Below, one piece after another: positions 1 through 57,995 of a DNA stretch of 64,000 bases. The stretch is from a virus, in IMG/VR virus record IMGVR_UViG_3300032053_000043, positions 1 to 64,000 of that record; one strand, given 5' to 3'. Each line of letters starts with the position of its first letter. The first letter of the stretch is position 1. The notes under the pieces were generated by a model. The model did not search any database, was not told where the DNA came from, and worked only from the letters and a program-made list of their open reading frames with translations. Made by a program: the position numbers and the translations under genes.

Positions 1-170
1 TGAACCACGGCTTTCACGACCGCTTCCGCTTCGTGTATACCCCCGTCCCGGTGAACGGGCATCGGCCGCGGCGCTGGCACAGGGCCGCGCTGTGGCTGCT
101 GACTGGCTGGCGACTCACGGTGCTGCTGTGCGTGGCGGCGCCTGCCGTCACCTGGCTGCTGATTCGGTGA
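1..170 (+). CDS. Partial small membrane protein
   Basis: Frame NHGFHDRFRF...LLCVAAPAVTWLLIR ends at TGA 168-170, just before rusA; 5' end at the window edge. Confidence 0.35.
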   Translation, partial: NHGFHDRFRFVYTPVPVNGHRPRRWHRAALWLLTGWRLTVLLCVAAPAVTWLLIR

Positions 171-3685: not shown

Positions 3686-4033
3686 ATGGCGCGACGGATG
3701 CGTGACGGCCAGTGGGATTTCGCCGAACGGGTAGCAGCAACCGGGACAGTCTGGTTCAGCCCCTGGGACAAGGAAAGGCGAACCGAGTTGGCGGATGAGC
3801 TTCGCTGTTGTCTGATCTCGGGTGTGGAGATGCTCTACTGGCTGGACCAGCACCCTGAATGGTGGGAGATCGGCGAGTGGGATCACTCCAGACAGGCGCG
3901 CCCTATCAGGCTGACCGCCGCCGGTCGTGCGGCGCTGGTTGATCGCGCGAAATACGACATGGAGCCGGTCTACTGGGGATTGGTGGAACCGGGACGGCAG
4001 ACCATCCCAGCGGCACGCCGAAGGGCAAAATGA
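3686..4033 (+). CDS. Hypothetical protein
   Basis: ORF with Trp-rich globular composition; start uncertain. Confidence 0.55.
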   Translation: MARRMRDGQWDFAERVAATGTVWFSPWDKERRTELADELRCCLISGVEMLYWLDQHPEWWEIGEWDHSRQARPIRLTAAGRAALVDRAKYDMEPVYWGLVEPGRQTIPAARRRAK

Positions 4034-4120
4034 ACAAGCCCAGAGACAGCATGATCGAGGGCAAACCGCCGGCCAAAAACGGCGACAACAAGAACGGCAA
4101 ATGGAAGAGCGGAACAGCCG

Positions 4121-4360
4121 ATGGATCTTAACCGTCTGCGCGAACTATTGGCCAACACGGAACTCGCCTACGATCTAATGGACGAACTGTACGCCGAAGA
4201 GGCTACGGAATTGCGAGACGGATGGTGGCGATACGAAGATTCCGCACTGCCGCGCATTGACCGAGAATTAGGGCACCTCAAAGAACTTCTGCGGCAAAAG
4301 GAACAACAACTTCGGCTGGACGGCCGGCAGCACACCGAATTGCCGTGGAGGAAAGCATGA
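4121..4360 (+). CDS. Hypothetical protein
   Basis: ORF track; ATGA coupling downstream. Confidence 0.55.
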   Translation: MDLNRLRELLANTELAYDLMDELYAEEATELRDGWWRYEDSALPRIDRELGHLKELLRQKEQQLRLDGRQHTELPWRKA

Positions 4361-4497
4361 GCGAGCCACTGACGCAGGCCGATTACGACCGTCAGGAGAA
4401 CGAACGCGAGGCCCGCGAGATTCGCAACCAGCCGGCACCCGTTGACGACCTGGGCGAGTATACCCCGGAGTTGGACCAGAGCAAGGGAAGCGGGTAA
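4357..4497 (+). CDS. Small acidic hypothetical protein (46 aa)
   Basis: GGAGG RBS; MSEPLTQADYDRQENERE...VDDLGEYTPELDQSKGSG; stop abuts the MTase start. Confidence 0.55.
   Translation: MSEPLTQADYDRQENEREAREIRNQPAPVDDLGEYTPELDQSKGSG
4441..4488 (+). repeat. Imperfect 48-bp direct repeat, copy 1 (copy 2 at 5752-5799), flanking the methyltransferase
   Basis: gttgacgac...gagta.accccggagttggacc.....aaggga; 38/48 identical. Confidence 0.85.
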
Positions 4498-5808
4498 GTG
4501 CCGGCCTATTACAACGAAAACGATCCCTTCGCGGCTGCCTGGCTGCCGGAACTGATGAAGGCGGGAGTGATTGCCCATGGTGAAGTCGATGAACGCGACA
4601 TCCGAGAAGTGCAACCCGAAGACGTGCGCGGGTTCGCCCAATGCCATTTCTTCGCCGGCATTGGGGTCTGGAATTACGCTCTTCGCCGAGCCGGATGGTC
4701 AGACGATACTCCCGTTTGGACAGGGAGTTGCCCATGCCCGCCGTTCTCCGTCGCTGGGAAGAAGAAGGCATGTCCAGCGTGCAAAGGCCGAAACCCTGTG
4801 CCGCATGTTGGACGAACTGGCTTCTTCGTATGCTGCGTATGCGGCCACGAATGGTTTGCCGATGCCCGCCATCTATGGCCGGAAATGTGGCGACTTATCC
4901 GCGACGGACGACCGCGATGTTTCTGCGGAGAGCAGGTTGCGGGAAGTGACGGCGAAACTTGGCTCGCGGCTGTTCGTGCTTCGTTGGAAATACTCGGATA
5001 TGACATTAGGGCCGCGAGTCTTAACGCTGCGGGCCTCGGGGCGCCGCAGATCCGGCAGCGGCTATACTTCCTGGCCGACACCGCAGGTCAGCGAAGCAAC
5101 CAGGGGCGGGCAAGCCAAACGGGCAGGCGGACGGAAACAAAACCTCAACGATTTCGCGATGCTGGCGAGTTGGCCGACGCCGCAGAGCCACGACGAACGG
5201 GAGCGCGGGAACGTGATGGCGGACCATCATCACTTCCCCCACGACCTGAGCAATGCGGCGAAGATGGCGAGTTGGCCGACGCCGCATACGCCGGACGGCG
5301 GGCGCATTCGGAAATCGCAACCGCATGGGAGCAAACGGCAGGCAGACATCGAGACCGTGGCGAGTTGGGCCACGCCGCGATCGGTCGAGGCGGGACACTC
5401 AACGGGCAATCCGGATCGAGCAGAAGACAGAAAATCGAGATTGGAAGACCAGGTCTTTCTGGCGACTGGTTGGGCCACGCCGAGATCAACGGACGGCGAG
5501 AAGCGTGGGCCGAATCAGCACGGCAGCAAGGGCGATCTGATGCTGCCGAGCCAGGCTTCACTAACGGCTTCTGGGCCGACGCCGAATGGCTCCACTGCCG
5601 CCCCGAGCCAGGATACCCCGACGGCCGCTGGCGGGCAGTTGAACCCGGCACATTCCCGCTGGTTGCAGGGGCTCCCGCCCGAGTGGGACGCCTGCGCGGC
5701 TACGGTAACTCTCTCACGGCGCCGGTCGCGCAAGCCTTCATAGAGGCATATGTTGACGACTGCGGTGAGTACACCCCGGAGTTGGACCGAGAAAAGGGAC
5801 CCGAGTAG
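4498..5808 (+). CDS. Phage DNA (cytosine-5) methyltransferase, main (alpha) frame, with zinc-ribbon insertion
   Basis: Motifs HFFAGIG (I), GSCPCPPFS (IV), GEQV (VI), APQIRQRLYF (VIII), RLRGYGNS (X). Confidence 0.9.
   Translation: MPAYYNENDPFAAAWLPELMKAGVIAHGEVDERDIREVQPEDVRGFAQCHFFAGIGVWNYALRRAGWSDDTPVWTGSCPCPPFSVAGKKKACPACKGRNPVPHVGRTGFFVCCVCGHEWFADARHLWPEMWRLIRDGRPRCFCGEQVAGSDGETWLAAVRASLEILGYDIRAASLNAAGLGAPQIRQRLYFLADTAGQRSNQGRASQTGRRTETKPQRFRDAGELADAAEPRRTGARERDGGPSSLPPRPEQCGEDGELADAAYAGRRAHSEIATAWEQTAGRHRDRGELGHAAIGRGGTLNGQSGSSRRQKIEIGRPGLSGDWLGHAEINGRREAWAESARQQGRSDAAEPGFTNGFWADAEWLHCRPEPGYPDGRWRAVEPGTFPLVAGAPARVGRLRGYGNSLTAPVAQAFIEAYVDDCGEYTPELDREKGPE
4571..5743 (+). CDS. Overlapping alternative-frame polypeptide (MTase beta-like subunit with WPTP repeats and motif IX-like segment)
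   Basis: 390 codons open in a shifted frame inside the MTase gene; five W(P/A)TP repeats and GQLNPAHSRWLQGLPPEW; start uncertain. Confidence 0.7.
   Translation: MPMVKSMNATSEKCNPKTCAGSPNAISSPALGSGITLFAEPDGQTILPFGQGVAHARRSPSLGRRRHVQRAKAETLCRMLDELASSYAAYAATNGLPMPAIYGRKCGDLSATDDRDVSAESRLREVTAKLGSRLFVLRWKYSDMTLGPRVLTLRASGRRRSGSGYTSWPTPQVSEATRGGQAKRAGGRKQNLNDFAMLASWPTPQSHDERERGNVMADHHHFPHDLSNAAKMASWPTPHTPDGGRIRKSQPHGSKRQADIETVASWATPRSVEAGHSTGNPDRAEDRKSRLEDQVFLATGWATPRSTDGEKRGPNQHGSKGDLMLPSQASLTASGPTPNGSTAAPSQDTPTAAGGQLNPAHSRWLQGLPPEWDACAATVTLSRRRSRKPS
5752..5799 (+). repeat. Imperfect 48-bp direct repeat, copy 2
   Basis: Matches 4441-4488; encodes VDDCGEYTPELDREKG. Confidence 0.85.
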
Positions 5809-5840
5809 CACCTAAATCACACGAAAAGGAGAGTAACACG

Positions 5841-6071
5841 ATGGCGCAGAAAGACACAGTGAAAACGGTTAGCGACATGATGCGCGAACTTCAGGCCGAG
5901 ATCGAGGCCGTCAAGAACGGCAAACTCGATGAATCCAAGGCGCGCGTCGTGGCCCGGTTTCGCGGCCTGCAACTGAAGACCGCGGAACTCAACCTGCAAT
6001 TCCAGCGGCTCACCAAGGGGCGGTTGCCCCAAACGGAGATGCCGCTGTTGCAGGCGCCGAAAGCAGCGTAG
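5841..6071 (+). CDS. Small helical hypothetical phage protein; its stop codon overlaps the first array delimiter
   Basis: AAGGAG RBS; 76 aa; TAG 6069-6071. Confidence 0.7.
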   Translation: MAQKDTVKTVSDMMRELQAEIEAVKNGKLDESKARVVARFRGLQLKTAELNLQFQRLTKGRLPQTEMPLLQAPKAA

Positions 6072-6552
6072 CGGCATTATTCGATGCCACGCGATGTGAC
6101 CGGACAAAGCGGCAGGACTAGACTCTATGGCGCAACATGCGACCGAGCGGCGCGACTCTACACGACCAGACTGCACGCAGCGGCTAGACCGCACCGGGTT
6201 GCACATGACCGGACTGGATACCACATAGCGGCTCGATGTGACTAGACAATATGTTACTTTACGGAGCGGCTAGATCGTACACCATGTTATTGGACAAAGC
6301 GGCCCGACAGGGCATGGCCCAACGATACTTAGCGGCACGGCGTGACTGAATCGAACGCAATGGAACGAGACTAACTCGAACGCAGCGGCCCGACAGTAAC
6401 AGTATATGACGAGACACAGCGGCGGGACAGCGTAGCACCGCATGGCATGCGATCCCACCCGACTCAGCGGCACGGTTAGATCGTACTGAACATGATTCCG
6501 CCACACGTAGCGGCTCTGCCGCACTCCGCCAGATTGAACGAGACGTAGCGGC
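6070..6552 (+). ncRNA. Pentamer-periodic guide-like RNA array: 13 AGCGGC delimiters and 12 units of (NN-NRY)n-NN (putative VIPR-like guide array)
   Basis: AGCGGC at 6070, 6108, 6146, 6179, 6227, 6265, 6298, 6331, 6384, 6418, 6466, 6509, 6547; unit lengths 32,32,27,42,32,27,27,47,28,42,37,32; 76/76 pentamers end in Y and 75/76 have R at position 4; no + strand ORF in the track. Confidence 0.85.
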
Positions 6553-6576
6553 CCCACACAACGAAAGGAGACAGAC

Positions 6577-7326
6577 GTGAACTATACAAAAGAGCAACTC
6601 ACCGAAGCGTACATTGCGCGCACGGCGGTTATTACCGCCCAATGCGCCTTTTCAACCGACCTGGTAGGCGGACAACCGGCCGATGAATCCGGAGTCGCCG
6701 CCTACGTGAAGCACCACCTGAAACTCGAAGGTGACGAAGCAACAGCGGCCGTCAAGCGCATTATGGCCGAAGAAATTGGAGAACGCGAGACCACCCCGGA
6801 AACCGGCGAACTGGAAGCCAAACTCAGTTACGGGATCAACGTCATCCGGCGCACCGAACACGGCCCCTGGATTGGGAACTGGATGGTCAAAGCCTGCTTC
6901 AAGCAGGCGGCCTCCCGGCTGCGCATCTTCAAGGAGATCATCGGCACCAAGGGCGACATGGCCGAAGCCGGCCAGGTATCCGCGGTCGGCATCAGCTTGG
7001 TCGAGGCGGATCACCCTGAGCGCATCTATCTGCGCGCCGCGAAACAGGACAAGCCCGCCTCGACCTACTGGCGGAAATTCATGGGACGCGTGCAGACCCC
7101 GCGCGGCGAGAAATCCATCATCCACGATTCGGAATGCGCCGATGCCGGGAGCCGGTTCGCCTTCCAGTACCGACTACTGCCGGGAAAACTGAAAGAAGAC
7201 GATCTGCGCGACATCTGCGCCTGCGCCATGATCGTCGGGCTCGGCAGCGCCAAGGCCCTGGAATGCGGGAAGTTTTCCATGCCCGCGGGATGCACCATCA
7301 ACTTTCCGAACGGGAAGAAAGCCTAA
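6577..7326 (+). CDS. Stand-alone RAMP superfamily (Cas7/Csm3-like) RNA-binding protein; putative Vipr-like effector
   Basis: RAMP motifs in order: AVITAQCAFSTDLVGG, PWIGNWMVKACFKQAA, SECADAGSRFAFQYRL, C-terminal glycine-rich loop GLGSAKALECGKF; AAGGAG RBS and GTG start 24 nt after the array. Confidence 0.8.
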   Translation: MNYTKEQLTEAYIARTAVITAQCAFSTDLVGGQPADESGVAAYVKHHLKLEGDEATAAVKRIMAEEIGERETTPETGELEAKLSYGINVIRRTEHGPWIGNWMVKACFKQAASRLRIFKEIIGTKGDMAEAGQVSAVGISLVEADHPERIYLRAAKQDKPASTYWRKFMGRVQTPRGEKSIIHDSECADAGSRFAFQYRLLPGKLKEDDLRDICACAMIVGLGSAKALECGKFSMPAGCTINFPNGKKA

Positions 7327-7382
7327 CAATGACAAATCCGAAAAACCACCCTCTCCTCTCTTTCATTGAGGAGGATACCACC

Positions 7383-8570
7383 ATGGCCCGAAGACCTCTG
7401 CAGAAAAAGGGATACCTGAAACAGATTGGCCCGAGTTGGTTTTTGCGCTGGCATGAGGATGTTCGCCTGGCCGATGGCACGATAGCGCGCGCCCACCCCG
7501 GCCGCGTGATCGCCCCGGCCGAAGGCCCCGGAGCCCTCAGCCACCGCGAAGCCAGCCGGCTCGCCTGGACCGAAATTCTCAGCAAACTCGATAGCTACAC
7601 CTGCCACCCCGGCTCCATCATCACCTTGCGCGAATTCATCGAGGCGAAATTCCAGCCCCAGGTCATCAACAAGCGGCACCCCGGCGGACAAGAACATTGG
7701 AAAACCATGCTGGGCCACATCCTGCCGGCGCTGGGCGCCATCGAACTGCGCGCCTTCAGCCTTGACCGCGTACAGCGGTTCCTGGACGGCAAGGCTCAGG
7801 AGACCTTCAGGGGCCGGCGGTATTCGGTCCAAACGCTCGTTCACTTACGGAACGCCCTCACCAGGATCTTCCGCCGCGCACGCAACCTGGACCTTTTCCC
7901 GGCCGACCGGACGCTGCCCACCGACGGCCTTGAACTACCGCCCATGCACCGGAAGGAACGGGGCTCCCTGACCATCGGCCAGGTGCGGGGCCTGATGGCG
8001 GTCCTGGATTCGCCCGTCCGTGAGCTCGTCCTGTTTCTGAGCGTGACCGGCTGCCGCATCAGTGAGGCGCTGGGGCTCCGGTGGGACCGGGTAGACTTCG
8101 ACCGCGCGCAGATCGTAAAGCGTGAGACATTCCGCCGCGGGCGGTGGGGGACCCTGAAGTCGGACGCCAGCCGGCGCAACATCCCGGTGCCCGATGAACT
8201 GCTGACCGAACTCGCCCGGCTGAAGTCGAGAACGCGCTGGAACGCCCCCGGGCACCCCGTCTTCGCCTGCCAGAGCACCGGCACGCCGCTTTCCGCGGCC
8301 AACATCCAGGCGCGCGTCCTGAAGCCCAAGGCGAGGCTGCTGGGTGTGCCGGCGGGGGTCTCTTGGCATTGGCTGAGACACGCCAACAGCACATGGCTGG
8401 CGGCCGGCGGGGTCAACACAACCGACCGGCGGCTACTCCACGGGCACACCTCGGACGAAATGGACGCACTCTACACGCACGGCAACCCGGAGGCGGTTCG
8501 CCAGGCCATGCAGTCGCTCACCAAGTCACTGCTGAAAGGGGATTCCGATGGCCGAAACATCGTTATGTGA
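7383..8570 (+). CDS. int: Tyrosine recombinase / phage integrase
   Basis: TGCRISEALGLRW (R), TLKS (K), HWLRH (HxxR), LHGHTS, LYTH (Y); GAGGAGG RBS; alternative start 7329. Confidence 0.93.
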   Translation: MARRPLQKKGYLKQIGPSWFLRWHEDVRLADGTIARAHPGRVIAPAEGPGALSHREASRLAWTEILSKLDSYTCHPGSIITLREFIEAKFQPQVINKRHPGGQEHWKTMLGHILPALGAIELRAFSLDRVQRFLDGKAQETFRGRRYSVQTLVHLRNALTRIFRRARNLDLFPADRTLPTDGLELPPMHRKERGSLTIGQVRGLMAVLDSPVRELVLFLSVTGCRISEALGLRWDRVDFDRAQIVKRETFRRGRWGTLKSDASRRNIPVPDELLTELARLKSRTRWNAPGHPVFACQSTGTPLSAANIQARVLKPKARLLGVPAGVSWHWLRHANSTWLAAGGVNTTDRRLLHGHTSDEMDALYTHGNPEAVRQAMQSLTKSLLKGDSDGRNIVM

Positions 8571-8805
8571 AATCGCCTGCCCCGGTTGTCAAGGGAAATT
8601 CGGAAGGTCGCTCGACGGTCAAACCTGGATCGGGTACAAGGGCCGGTGGTGGCATAAGGACTGCGCCCCAAGGGGCGCAAAGAAGGAACCCAATCCAATT
8701 CCCGGAGAGACAATCCCCGTGAGTGTCCCGAGGGGATGCGACGCGAACTCGTACATCCACGGATTTGGCGACGGCATATTGTACGCCCGCCGCGCGAAAG
8801 GATAA
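8548..8805 (+). CDS. Hypothetical protein (CxxC...HxxC)
   Basis: ORF overlapping the integrase end; CPGC and WHKDC. Confidence 0.55.
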   Translation: MAETSLCEIACPGCQGKFGRSLDGQTWIGYKGRWWHKDCAPRGAKKEPNPIPGETIPVSVPRGCDANSYIHGFGDGILYARRAKG

Positions 8806-8820
8806 ACTGAGGAGGGTGTC

Positions 8821-9360
8821 ATGAACGAGAAACTGAACGAACCGACCATTGAGGAAATCAAGGAAGCACTGGCGAAGATCACTCCGGGAGAGTGGGGTTG
8901 CGGAGGCGGACGTTATCTGCCAATAGTTGCGATTTGTAAGAACAGATACACGCAGATCGGTCGCGCCGAGGGCTGTGCAGATCGGCTATCGAACGAAGAA
9001 ATAGAGGCGAACGGCAGACTGATGGCCGAGAGCCCGCGCTACATTCGGTTCCTGTTGGCGACGGTCGAGGCGCTGGAATCATGGATCAAGGCGGCCAACC
9101 AGTTCGCGTGGGTTCACGATTCGTTCTGTCCGCGCCGGAAGGCCAATGCTGCTTGCACCTGTGGCCTGGACGGTTTCCTGTCTCGACCGCGTCTGTTCGT
9201 GGACTCCTACAAGCAACGCGTCGAGGCTCTGGAGAAGGCCCTGTCCGACCTGATGGCTTGGGGCGTTGAACATGACAATCCGGGCATCGGGTACATCACC
9301 GTGCAGGTGGACCGGGCGGCGGTGGAGCAGGCGAGGGTTCTTCTGAAAGGAAAACCATGA
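8821..9360 (+). CDS. Hypothetical phage early protein (Ead/Ea22-like N-terminus)
   Basis: KITPGEW...EANGRLMAESPRYIRFLL pattern; GAGGAGG RBS. Confidence 0.6.
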   Translation: MNEKLNEPTIEEIKEALAKITPGEWGCGGGRYLPIVAICKNRYTQIGRAEGCADRLSNEEIEANGRLMAESPRYIRFLLATVEALESWIKAANQFAWVHDSFCPRRKANAACTCGLDGFLSRPRLFVDSYKQRVEALEKALSDLMAWGVEHDNPGIGYITVQVDRAAVEQARVLLKGKP

Positions 9361-56665: not shown

Positions 56666-56901
56666 CTGTAGACCAAGTTCTTAACAGCAATTTGTGGACG
56701 CCAGCCGAAAAGTCTGTTGTCAAATGGCAGTTTCGCAAGTTTGGACACTTCTTCACGGCGCTCTTTGGGACAATGGCTCGCGCAGACGAAGAGAATCTAA
56801 CCAAGCTTGCGCTTGGCTTTCCGGATGAAGTCGCCGGCTTCCGTGAGTGGGCGCATGGCAACCTCGCGGAGCGTTTGCGAAAGGCAGGGTTGGAGATTTG
56901 A
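56662..56901 (+). CDS. Hypothetical phage protein
   Basis: GHFFTALFGTMARADEENLTKLALGFPDEV. Confidence 0.65.
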   Translation: MTVDQVLNSNLWTPAEKSVVKWQFRKFGHFFTALFGTMARADEENLTKLALGFPDEVAGFREWAHGNLAERLRKAGLEI

Positions 56902-57995
56902 CCCAAGAACAATTAGAAACGCTCGCGTCGCTAATCGAACGTCTGCATTCCCTTGGCGTAACTGCGAAGTTCGTGGACGTTGCCGAAGGCCCTGTAGTCA
57001 CGGTGTACCGATTCTTGCCTACAGGCAAAACGCGGGTGTCTCACCTTGAAGCTTTGAGCGCCGACTTCGCGGTAGCGACTGGTAGCGAAGCTATTGTCGT
57101 GAAACGTGTTCCCGGCGATACTGCCGTTGGCGTTTTCGTCCCGAATCGCGTGCGGGTGCCCGTACATTTCCGTGATTGCGTAGCCAAGGCTTGGGGAGTC
57201 AAGGACGAAAAAGCAGTCCCGCTTTGCCTTGGGATCGACAATTATGGAAACTTCATTGTCGAGGACCTTGCAGAGATGCCACATCTTCTTGTTGCGGGCT
57301 CGACTGGCTCGGGAAAATCTACCCTTTTAACTTCGTTAATCGCCGCAAGTGTTTACTTAGTTGATAGTTCTAGATTAGCACTAATACTTTCCGATACCAA
57401 AGGTGTGGAGTTCGCGCATTTCGCAAAAGTTCCGCATTTGCTCTTCGAGCCAGCGACAAGTCCGTACCAAACCTGCGAAAGGATGGAGTGGCTCGTAAAC
57501 GAAACGGATCGGAGGATGAAGGAATTCAAGTACGCCGGACTCCGTAACATCAAAGAATACAACGAAGGAAACCAAAAGCCATTTCCGTTTATTATCTTGA
57601 TAATCGACGAACTCGCAGATATTCTAACTGATAGGTCGAAGACCGACGACAAACTTTCCCTTGGAAAGCTCGCTGCGGCGCAGTTATCAAGAATTGTTGC
57701 GCGATCCCGTGCGGCTGGTTGTTATGTAATAGCCGCAACGCAACGACCTTCGGTAGATATTGTAGCAGGCTCAATTAAGAGTAACTTTCCCGCGAGAATT
57801 TCATTCCGCTTGCCATCGCAAATCGACAGCCGAACAGTTTTGGGGTATGGTGGCGCGGAGCACCTACTATCGCAAGGCGATATGCTATTCGTTAATCCGA
57901 ACAAGCCGGGCCTCATACGGTTGCACGCGCCTTTGGCATCTTACGTAGACGTGGAGGCTTGCGTAGAAGCTTCAGTAAGGAGTACCAATGCCTGA
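56898..57995 (+). CDS. FtsK/SpoIIIE-family ATPase (no membrane or gamma domain)
   Basis: MPHLLVAGSTGSGKST, ILIIDELADI, AATQRPSVD, IKSNFPARISF, GAEHLLSQGDML; TTG start. Confidence 0.92.
   Translation: MTQEQLETLASLIERLHSLGVTAKFVDVAEGPVVTVYRFLPTGKTRVSHLEALSADFAVATGSEAIVVKRVPGDTAVGVFVPNRVRVPVHFRDCVAKAWGVKDEKAVPLCLGIDNYGNFIVEDLAEMPHLLVAGSTGSGKSTLLTSLIAASVYLVDSSRLALILSDTKGVEFAHFAKVPHLLFEPATSPYQTCERMEWLVNETDRRMKEFKYAGLRNIKEYNEGNQKPFPFIILIIDELADILTDRSKTDDKLSLGKLAAAQLSRIVARSRAAGCYVIAATQRPSVDIVAGSIKSNFPARISFRLPSQIDSRTVLGYGGAEHLLSQGDMLFVNPNKPGLIRLHAPLASYVDVEACVEASVRSTNA

What the first reader, a model, noticed from the sequence alone, without database searches (positions are those of the whole stretch)
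6070..7326. Candidate phage RNA-guided system: pentamer-coded repeat array plus a lone RAMP/Cas7-like gene (VIPR-like, non-GGY variant)
Seen: 483 nt without a + strand ORF, cut by 13 exact AGCGGC hexamers into 12 units of 32,32,27,42,32,27,27,47,28,42,37,32 nt. That is 5n+2 in 11 of 12 units; unit 9 has one extra base. Each unit parses as (NN-NRY)n-NN, e.g. ag-gac ta-gac tc-tat gg-cgc aa-cat gc-gac cg. Of 76 pentamers, 76 end in C/T, 75 have a purine at position 4 (65 A) and 37 have G at position 3, while positions 1-2 are free. The array ends 24 nt before a 249-aa gene with RAMP motifs and a glycine-rich loop. Established: Cas7/Csm3-type RAMPs polymerise along guide RNA at a fixed nucleotide step. 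Inference: one protomer binds each NRY scaffold and displays the NN dinucleotide, so each unit is a guide that reads a gapped target, probably for inter-phage competition or transcriptional silencing. There is no cas1/2/3/5/6/8/10 or CRISPR array in the window. As I recall (not verified here), the recently reported VIPR systems pair a RAMP protein with GGY/NN repeats; an NAY/NRY scaffold with AGCGGC punctuation would be a distinct variant.
Basis: partly seen in the sequence, partly recalled or inferred. Interest (0 to 1): 0.97.

Follow-up and report, generated by a model that had tools for sequence, protein, structure and literature searches.

The report
Phage VIPR system with NAY-NN guides
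A sediment phage carries a real copy of the recently described VIPR system (a lone CRISPR-like RNA-binding protein plus an array of five-letter-repeat guide RNAs), in a form that uses N-A-Y instead of G-G-Y as the fixed letters and cuts the array into short cassettes with AGCGGC; the class and this letter variant were already reported in 2026 preprints.

Summary
Thirteen exact AGCGGC hexamers (0.25 expected) cut 6070-6552 into 12 units, 11 of them 5n+2 nt long. 71 of 76 pentamers read NN-N-R-Y in one phase; no shuffle in 10,000 reached that.

In 35 of 43 homologous loci the same punctuated array lies beside the gene, on the gene's strand. Sister strains swap whole cassettes at the delimiters, and their indels and substitutions respect the grammar.

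I read it as a VIPR-type RNA-guided module on a temperate tailed phage. Expression, RNA processing, protein binding and targets are not shown, and every target search gave chance-level results.

Novelty is limited. VIPR was published in April 2026. A 22 October 2026 preprint already lists GAC/NN arrays beside Vipr-like folds. This scan had also noted an NAY-NN/AGCGGC array on another phage. What the texts I could read do not describe is the [NRY]-GGC punctuation, the short cassettes (mode six pentamers) and their turnover between strains.

The parts
5841..6071 (+). Small helical ORF (76 aa) directly upstream of the array. Its TAG stop overlaps the first AGCGGC. It is a candidate accessory (vap-like) gene.
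   Evidence: Weak but consistent homologues sit in the same position, directly upstream of the array, in 8 other loci. No Pfam, PHROG or PADLOC hit. The nearest Atlas clusters are viral hypothetical proteins of 77-83 aa. Its function is not shown.
6070..6552 (+). Guide array: 13 AGCGGC delimiters and 12 cassettes of 5 to 9 full NN-NRY pentamers plus a final NN. Counting the AGC of the delimiter as the last scaffold triplet, each cassette has 6 to 10 NN dinucleotides.
   Evidence: counts and shuffles; an HMM parse finds this as the only such array in the 75-kb genome, on the + strand only; the RNA is not more structured than shuffles (z +0.97); no Rfam family, so no ribozyme.
6390..6417 (+). 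Irregular cassette 9 (28 nt, one base too many).
   Evidence: In three other samples this cassette lacks 6 nt and is 22 nt long, which is 5n+2.
6553..6576 (+). Two trailing pentamers (ccCAC acAAC), then the ribosome-binding site AAGGAG and a spacer before the GTG start.
   Evidence: Read from the sequence.
6577..7326 (+). vipr-like gene: a 249-aa stand-alone RAMP with a single RRM core.
6877..6918 (+). Helix 1 of the RRM (residues 101-114; NWMVKACFKQAASR, within the conserved motif GPWIGNWMVKACxK). It aligns with the SUSP1 Vipr helix-1 pyrimidine pocket.
   Evidence: hhalign alignments. SUSP1 E71/M72 align with W102/M103.
7063..7140 (+). Long beta-hairpin (residues 163-188), the predicted thumb.
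   Evidence: Secondary structure of the model: strands 163-174 and 177-188.
7237..7275 (+). Glycine-rich loop GLGSAKALECGKF (residues 221-233).
   Evidence: G221, G223, S224 and G231 are invariant in 39 homologues. The loop aligns with SUSP1 G174-F185.

Best explanation
This is a VIPR-type RNA-guided module of a temperate tailed phage from sediment. It consists of a candidate small accessory gene, a guide array and a vipr-like RAMP gene, all on the + strand. It sits between a C5 DNA methyltransferase gene and the integrase gene.

Proposed mechanism (inferred from SUSP1 VIPR unless marked otherwise):
- The array is transcribed with the operon.
- RAMP protomers bind one per pentamer. Each holds the N-A/G-Y triplet and exposes the two free bases.
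- The exposed dinucleotides of one cassette (6 to 10 here; mode 6 across the family) together read a gapped DNA target in a rival mobile element and block its transcription.
- The AGC-GGC delimiter is two scaffold triplets with no NN between them. It shifts the phase by 3 nt and most likely marks the ends of individual guides, as a processing, nucleation or stop site.

Shown here:
- the grammar of the array;
- the RAMP fold of the protein;
- the conserved gene-array linkage on the gene's strand;
- cassette turnover between strains that respects the grammar.

Inferred:
- transcription and processing of the array;
- one protomer per pentamer;
- the 1-nt skip rule;
- DNA rather than RNA as target;
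- inter-phage silencing as the role.
For: 1. Array statistics: 13 AGCGGC against 0.25 expected, and 71/76 pentamers in phase with 0 of 10,000 shuffles reaching that.

3. Link to a bona fide Vipr: the SUSP1 Vipr gene was identified in KT454805.2, with H17, R138, D177, W178 and R179 at the published positions. It matches PDB 36pp. The family profile against the SUSP1-clade profile gives E 3e-4, probability 40%, over 177 co-linear columns. Distant relatives of this family (HMMER E 1e-13 to 1e-24) give probability 87%, E 4e-6.

4. Protein and RNA change together. The SUSP1 G-loop residues that contact the two guanines, D177 and W178, are S224 and A225 here. The residues that hold the pyrimidine, M72 and R179, align with M103 and K226. 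That matches loss of GG and retention of Y in the RNA.

5. Linkage: 35 of 43 homologous loci have the same array within 700 nt, mostly on the gene strand only; 5 loci also parse on the opposite strand. In five related virus records (about 375 kb), arrays over 100 nt lie only beside the gene; in this phage's own 75-kb genome the array at 6073-6572 is the only one. Between exact AGCGGC pairs, 130 of 190 unit lengths are 5n+2.

6. Strain variation: the cassette run 6271-6416 is replaced by 84 other bases, with breakpoints at delimiters. Indels of 6 and 10 nt give 5n+2 cassettes in the other strains. Of 11 substitutions, 7 fall in NN, and none breaks the R-Y scaffold. One restores the consensus A.

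7. Composition: the NN dinucleotides fit codon positions 1-2 better than the other phases (summed log-odds when each guide takes its better strand: 122 against 31 and -309). This is what a wobble-skipping reader of coding DNA would give.

8. Host element: the contig is a phage, with terminase, portal and major head protein and an integrase.
Against: No target was found (details under Tried and rejected). No RNA run holds the locus, so transcription, processing and binding are untested.

The direct profile match to SUSP1 Vipr is weak (probability 40%).

The scaffold is not GGY, and there is no structured 3' tail such as type II vrRNAs have.

Cassettes specify only 12 to 20 bases, fewer than the 9-16 repeats of published vrRNAs. 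A single cassette would therefore be poorly specific in a bacterial genome.

The closest solved folds are type III backbone subunits, which read RNA, so DNA targeting is an assumption.

The codon-composition test used only 13 ORFs of one phage as its model and is confounded by base composition.
Confidence: 0.8

Rival explanations
1. Same components, different working unit. The array acts as one long RNA, or as multi-cassette RNAs, that is not cut at AGCGGC. The delimiters would be hinges or phase shifts inside a continuous filament. Several short cassettes would then bind neighbouring sites together to reach useful specificity.
For: Single cassettes specify only 12-20 bases. No ribozyme, promoter or terminator separates the cassettes. 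The delimiter is itself made of scaffold-type triplets.
Against: Joined adjacent cassettes with gaps of 0-7 nt found no better matches than swapped controls in 606 kb. That database is small. Strains exchange cassettes as independent modules.
Confidence: 0.2
2. The ribonucleoprotein reads RNA (rival transcripts) rather than double-stranded DNA, as type III Csm3/Cmr4 backbones do.
For: The best structural matches are Csm3, Cmr and type VII Cas7 subunits. Nothing here tests the nature of the target.
Against: The only experimentally studied relatives, SUSP1 and P. fulva VIPR, bind dsDNA and silence from either strand. In the composition test the guides split between forward and reverse-complement codon models (112 and 91 of 332). 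That split fits DNA targeting on both strands better than sense-RNA targeting.
Confidence: 0.12
3. The repeats act at the DNA level, for example as arm-type or accessory sites of the neighbouring integrase (attP) or as iterons. The RAMP gene would then be unrelated to them.
For: The array lies about 830 nt upstream of the integrase gene, which starts at 7383.
Against: Across 43 loci the array travels with the RAMP gene. Apart from the small upstream ORF, no other neighbour, integrase included, forms a family shared by more than 5 loci. The grammar is strand-specific and follows the gene's strand. A 2-free/3-fixed 5-nt code with hypervariable dinucleotides is not a known protein-site architecture.
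Confidence: 0.03
4. Chance composition, or a protein-coding stretch on the minus strand (ORFs 6259-6642 and 6270-6557).
For: Two minus-strand ORFs of 127 and 95 aa cover the array.
Against: The periodicity is 5, not 3. Strain indels of 6 and 10 nt and cassette swaps would change or break a reading frame. No shuffle reaches the observed grammar. Array length and content vary freely among homologous loci.
Confidence: 0.01

Closest known systems
Non-canonical VIPR arrays (GAC/NN, CAC/NN and others) reported in 'Systematic mapping of the prokaryotic noncoding sequence space with a genomic language model', bioRxiv 10.64898/2026.10.21.760802 (22 Oct 2026)
   Same: A 5-nt period, a fixed trinucleotide other than GGY with GAC named explicitly, and a Vipr-like fold encoded beside the array. 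GAC is the commonest triplet here. This is probably the same family or a sister of it.
   Different: That text gives only the motif and the neighbouring fold. In what I could read it does not mention delimiters, short cassettes, a degenerate first position (N-A-Y rather than GAC), strain turnover or an accessory ORF. I could not see its Fig. S10, so identity with one of its 21 clusters is not verified.
Type II VIPR of Escherichia phage SUSP1 (Vipr ALH47069.1, PDB 36pp; vap1; four vrRNAs), bioRxiv 10.64898/2026.04.26.720920 and 10.64898/2026.04.26.720927
   Same: A phage-borne lone RAMP with a single RRM, thumb and G-loop. Adjacent non-coding pentamer repeats with three constrained and two free positions and a pyrimidine at the third scaffold position. 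No cas genes. A small neighbouring gene.
   Different: - The scaffold is N-A-Y, not G-G-Y.
- The protein is 249 aa rather than 195 aa, with extra N-terminal helices.
- G-loop residues D177/W178 are replaced by S224/A225.
- Guides have 6-10 NN rather than 9-16 repeats.
- There is no structured 3' tail. Guides abut, separated only by AGCGGC.
- The array lies upstream of the gene in one block.
Staggered vrRNA arrays (Fig. S18 of 10.64898/2026.04.26.720920)
   Same: Contiguous vrRNAs in which the end of one marks the start of the next, with no spacer or ribozyme between them.
   Different: Only the legend was readable. Which VIPR type and which motif it shows is unknown to me, and it mentions a 1-nt overlap rather than a hexamer delimiter.
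Cas7 backbone subunits of class 1 CRISPR-Cas (Csm3, Cmr4, type VII Cas7)
   Different: No CRISPR repeats and no Cas hit among the six neighbouring proteins tested. No second RAMP. No match to PADLOC Cas models. The step is 5 nt, not 6 nt.

Membership tests
VIPR (Vipr + vrRNA) | Sequence or profile homology to an experimentally characterised Vipr (SUSP1, PDB 36pp) | tested here: inconclusive
   Direct hhalign: probability 40%, E 3e-4, 177 co-linear columns. Via distant relatives of this family: probability 87%, E 4e-6. This is suggestive but below the usual 95% mark.
VIPR (Vipr + vrRNA) | Adjacent non-coding tandem pentamers with three constrained and two hypervariable positions | tested here: met
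   71/76 pentamers in phase, with 0 of 10,000 shuffles reaching that. Positions 1-2 are near-uniform. 7 of 11 strain substitutions fall in NN.
VIPR (Vipr + vrRNA) | Scaffold trinucleotide GGY (canonical definition) | tested here: not met
   Position 2 of the triplet is A in 79% across 2,366 pentamers, and position 1 is G in only 41%. The authors allow 'a related consensus' (NNNGG, YNNNG, NNNNG), and a later preprint lists GAC/NN as a divergent VIPR. This fails the narrow definition only.
VIPR (Vipr + vrRNA) | Gene-array linkage conserved among homologues | tested here: met
   35 of 43 loci have the array (23 upstream, 7 downstream, 5 both). All 8 without an array have less than 1 kb of sequence on at least one side.
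VIPR (Vipr + vrRNA) | Minimal locus on a virus or provirus, without cas genes or a CRISPR array | tested here: met
   Terminase, portal and major head protein. Integrase. No CRISPR-like repeats. No Cas hits among six neighbours. The rest of the window was not scanned for cas genes.
VIPR (Vipr + vrRNA) | Array transcribed into small RNAs that co-purify with the protein | not testable with these tools
   No RNA run holds the locus. This needs small-RNA sequencing and pull-down.
VIPR (Vipr + vrRNA) | Targets read by the NN code with one skipped base | tested here: inconclusive
   No enrichment at any skip length in 75 kb, 260 kb or 450 kb. Exact IMG/VR scans of the four longest guides gave chance-level hits out of codon phase. 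The composition test favours codon positions 1-2.
Type II VIPR (SUSP1 clade) | vrRNA of 9-16 repeats capped by a conserved structured 3' tail | tested here: not met
   Cassettes of 6-10 NN here, mode 6 pentamers across the family. Only a 6-nt delimiter follows each. No excess structure (z +0.97) and no Rfam hit.
CRISPR-Cas class 1 (type III/VII effector) | CRISPR repeat-spacer array plus further cas genes (Cas10/Cas5/Cas6 and others) | tested here: not met
   No such repeats in 64 kb. The RAMP and five neighbours have no Cas model hits.

The most novel reading that the evidence does not exclude
The [NRY]-GGC punctuation defines an array architecture of its own. Mini-guides of about six pentamers (one turn of a six-per-turn Vipr filament) would be individually delimited. 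They would be exchanged as cassettes by recombination at the 6-nt delimiters, giving the phage a modular, fast-changing guide repertoire without Cas1-Cas2. The single canonical GGY triplet per cassette would be the nucleation or stop signal for a protein that otherwise holds N-A-Y.
Probability: 0.3. Interest if true: 0.6.

Novelty: new member of a known kind. Interest (0 to 1): 0.42.

Why it matters
VIPR is a months-old class that is proposed as the ancestor of CRISPR effectors and as a compact programmable DNA binder.

This locus belongs to a large, mostly viral family: 427 clusters at 50% identity, from soil, groundwater and sediment. In this family the fixed RNA triplet has changed from GGY to NAY, and the two G-loop residues that contact the guanines in SUSP1 Vipr have changed with it. 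One relative (L035) uses NGY.

That gives a natural series for working out how Vipr reads its scaffold triplet. It also offers a second, orthogonal scaffold for engineering.

The delimiter-bounded short cassettes and their exchange between co-occurring strains give a first look at how guide repertoires turn over without an adaptation machine.

None of this overturns the published picture. It extends it.

Tried and rejected
Target searches, all at chance level:
- The 12 guides against the phage's own 75 kb at skip 0-3 gave best matches equal across skip rules.
- 251 family guides against 260 kb of homologous loci gave counts equal to shuffled guides. The same guides against 450 kb (five related virus records plus this genome) gave 10 perfect hits at skip 1, against 3 and 5 in two shuffles and 10 at skip 3, all from 6-NN guides.
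- 277 adjacent guide pairs joined with gaps of 0-7 nt against 606 kb did no better than swapped controls.
- Exact IMG/VR scans gave 0 hits for guide 8 (20 specified bases), 0 for guide 4 (18), 1 for guide 10 (18) and 6 for guide 11 (16).
- The guide 10 hit has the skipped base at codon position 2 of a polymerase-like ORF. The six guide 11 hits lie in unrelated contigs, and none has NN at codon positions 1-2.
- Relatives of this phage in IMG/VR, found with the terminase, are mostly 5-kb fragments and were not pursued.

Other searches that gave nothing:
- No RNA holder is listed among the public runs that hold the locus.
- No sigma-70-like promoter and no + strand terminator in 4000-9000.
- No Rfam family in 5500-7600.
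- Pfam, PHROG and PADLOC gave nothing for the RAMP or the small ORF.
- An HMM search of PDB sequences with the family profile gave nothing.
- tblastn of the RAMP against 50,697 GenBank phage records gave no match.
- PDB 36pp (SUSP1 Vipr) did not appear in the fold libraries searched, so there is no direct structural superposition with a solved Vipr.

Alignment limit: mapping of the SUSP1 thumb residue R138 onto this protein fell in a low-confidence part of the alignment. I make no claim from it.
Full report
**Observation**

The + strand of 6070-6552 holds 13 exact AGCGGC hexamers. The remaining 63.5 kb holds 33, so 0.25 would be expected in 483 nt. They cut 12 units of 32, 32, 27, 42, 32, 27, 27, 47, 28, 42, 37 and 32 nt.

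Read in fives from the base after each hexamer, 71 of 76 pentamers have a purine at position 4 and a pyrimidine at position 5. The other four frames give 2 to 21, and none of 10,000 within-unit shuffles reached 71. Position 4 is A in 62, position 3 is G in 36, and positions 1-2 are close to uniform. Unit 9 has one base too many; removing one base puts all five of its pentamers into the pattern.

The first hexamer overlaps the stop codon of a 76-aa ORF. The last ends 24 nt before the GTG start of the 249-aa gene, which has an AAGGAG ribosome-binding site.

**The protein**

The 249-aa product has no Pfam, PHROG or PADLOC match. It belongs to a large family of unannotated proteins: at least 243 by word-seeded search and 427 representative clusters by exhaustive profile search. 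The nearest Atlas clusters are 94-100% viral.

The model has one RRM core, a long beta-hairpin at residues 163-188 (the thumb) and the loop GLGSAKALECGKF, whose glycines and serine are invariant.

**What is known**

VIPR systems were described in April 2026 (bioRxiv 10.64898/2026.04.26.720920 and .720927).
- A phage-borne lone RAMP, Vipr, polymerises one protomer per repeat on vrRNAs made of GGY/NN pentamers.
- The NN bases read dsDNA with one base skipped per step.
- The complex silences rival phages and satellites.
- Seven types are named, with 'a related consensus' in some (NNNGG, YNNNG, NNNNG), plus staggered and ribozyme-separated arrays.

An October 2026 paper adds solo vrRNAs. A preprint of 22 October 2026 (10.64898/2026.10.21.760802) reports 21 clusters of 5-nt arrays with other fixed triplets, 'e.g. 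GAC/NN or CAC/NN', each beside a Vipr-like fold.

**Membership**

I located the SUSP1 vipr gene in KT454805.2 by its flanking GGY/NN repeats. The published residues H17, E71, M72, R138, C173, D177, W178 and R179 sit at those positions; residue 175 is V, not the published T. The sequence matches PDB 36pp, 'SUSP1 Vipr protein'.

- A profile of this family against a profile of the SUSP1 clade gives E 3e-4 and probability 40% over 177 co-linear columns, from helix 1 to the G-loop.
- Distant relatives of this family (HMMER E 1e-13 to 1e-24) give probability 87% and E 4e-6 against the SUSP1 clade.

Homology is thus likely but not proven by sequence. By fold, the protein passes the authors' own filter.

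In the aligned G-loop, SUSP1 G174-x-G176-D177-W178-R179 corresponds to G221-L-G223-S224-A225-K226. In SUSP1, D177 bonds the first G, W178 stacks on the second, and R179 and M72 hold the pyrimidine. Here the two guanine contacts are replaced, while the pyrimidine contacts align with K226 and M103. That matches an RNA that has lost GG but kept Y. This is an inference from a weak alignment.

**Linkage**

I fetched 43 homologous loci (37-61% identity in the best aligned segment) from viral, genome and metagenome collections.
- An HMM for the grammar finds arrays within 700 nt of the gene in 35 of them: 23 upstream, 7 downstream, 5 on both sides.
- Arrays lie mostly on the gene's strand only; 5 loci also parse on the opposite strand.
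- All 8 loci without an array have less than 1 kb of sequence on at least one side.
- In five related virus records fetched in full (about 375 kb), arrays longer than 100 nt occur only beside the gene. In this phage's own 75-kb genome the array at 6073-6572 is the only one.
- Between exact AGCGGC pairs, 130 of 190 unit lengths are 5n+2. Lengths divisible by 5 are what two units joined by a variant delimiter would give.

The parse yields 399 distinct guides, mostly of 5-8 pentamers with a mode of 6. Scaffold positions are G 41%, A 79% and C/T 99%.

The delimiter generalises to a scaffold triplet followed directly by GGC: AGC in 230 cases, GGC in 49, TGC in 23, and NAC in about 50. Locus L043 uses bare GGC after GAC or AAC. 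One relative, L035, uses N-G-Y (86% G), so the family spans both purines.

The only conserved neighbour is the small upstream helical ORF, found in 9 loci including this one.

**Strain variation**

The phage comes from sediment metagenomes, and no RNA run holds it. I laid contigs from four other samples on the locus.
- The flanking genes are near-identical.
- Positions 6271-6416 (cassettes 6-9) are replaced by 84 other bases, with breakpoints at delimiters.
- A second contig joins 6371 to 6524.
- Other contigs diverge directly after the first delimiter, and one divergent sequence follows the same nn-NRY grammar.
- Cassette 9 lacks 6 nt in three samples (28 to 22 nt).
- Cassette 12 lacks 10 nt in two samples.
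- Of 11 substitutions, 7 are in NN, 2 at the free first scaffold position, one is C to T at the Y position, and one turns the array's single non-purine position-4 base back into A.

The grammar is therefore under constraint while guide content turns over.

**How it probably works**

There is no promoter-like site, + strand terminator or Rfam family in or around the array. The array RNA is no more structured than shuffles (z +0.97). Co-transcription with the operon and binding as an extended strand are the simplest reading.

By analogy with SUSP1, each protomer would hold one N-A-Y triplet and display NN. The AGC-GGC pair, two triplets with no NN between them, would end one guide and start the next.

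A composition test gives mild support for a wobble-skipping reader of coding DNA. 203 of 332 guides fit codon positions 1-2 (forward or reverse) best, and the summed log-odds are 122 against 31 and -309 for the other phases. The codon model rests on only 13 ORFs.

**Targets**

None were found. The own genome, 260 kb of homologous loci, 450 kb of phage genomes and joined adjacent guides all gave counts equal to shuffled or swapped controls at every skip length. Exact IMG/VR scans of the four longest guides gave 0, 0, 1 and 6 hits, none with NN at codon positions 1-2. This says little, because sediment mobile elements are poorly sampled and only exact matches could be scanned.

**Verdict**

This is a real and well-supported VIPR-type module. 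It belongs to a class published in 2026, its scaffold variant was listed in October 2026, and this scan had already noted an NAY-NN/AGCGGC array on another phage. I did not test those earlier notes.

What the readable texts do not describe:
- the [NRY]-GGC punctuation;
- the short cassettes;
- the protein-RNA co-variation;
- cassette exchange between strains.

I file it as a new member of a known kind, with moderate interest.

Noticed in passing
L035:1765-2676: A 44%-identical homologue has a downstream array whose scaffold is N-G-Y (86% G at the middle position) with the same AGCGGC delimiters. The family therefore spans both purines. Its G-loop reads GLGSSKSFGNGKF.
   Followed up: partly
L043:3-895: This array uses a bare GGC placed after a normal GAC/AAC pentamer as its delimiter, with 95% A at the middle scaffold position. 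This suggests that GGC is the essential part of the punctuation.
   Followed up: partly
window 6351-6400: A 25-nt (five-pentamer) tandem duplication sits inside cassette 8, which hints that cassettes grow by in-phase duplication.
   Followed up: no
window 4498-5808: A C5 cytosine DNA methyltransferase (Pfam PF00145, phrog_363) lies directly upstream of the module. A second long open frame, 4571-5743, overlaps it.
   Followed up: no
window 7383-8570: A tyrosine integrase lies directly downstream of the vipr-like gene, so the module sits at the edge of the lysogeny region. No integrase family was shared by more than 5 of the homologous loci in the neighbour clustering.
   Followed up: partly
L041:2900-4274: The most distant homologue fetched (37% identity) has no array within 3.5 kb upstream. 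It follows a gene with an ABC/SMC-type ATPase motif, so it may be a different system type.
   Followed up: no
L010, L009, L018, L028 (minus strand): In a few loci the grammar model also parses stretches on the opposite strand. I inspected the + strand sequence only for L035 and L010, and the cause is unresolved.
   Followed up: no
window 56847-57995: An FtsK/SpoIIIE-like ATPase gene (phrog_1358, E 1e-70) lies in the early region of this phage.
   Followed up: no
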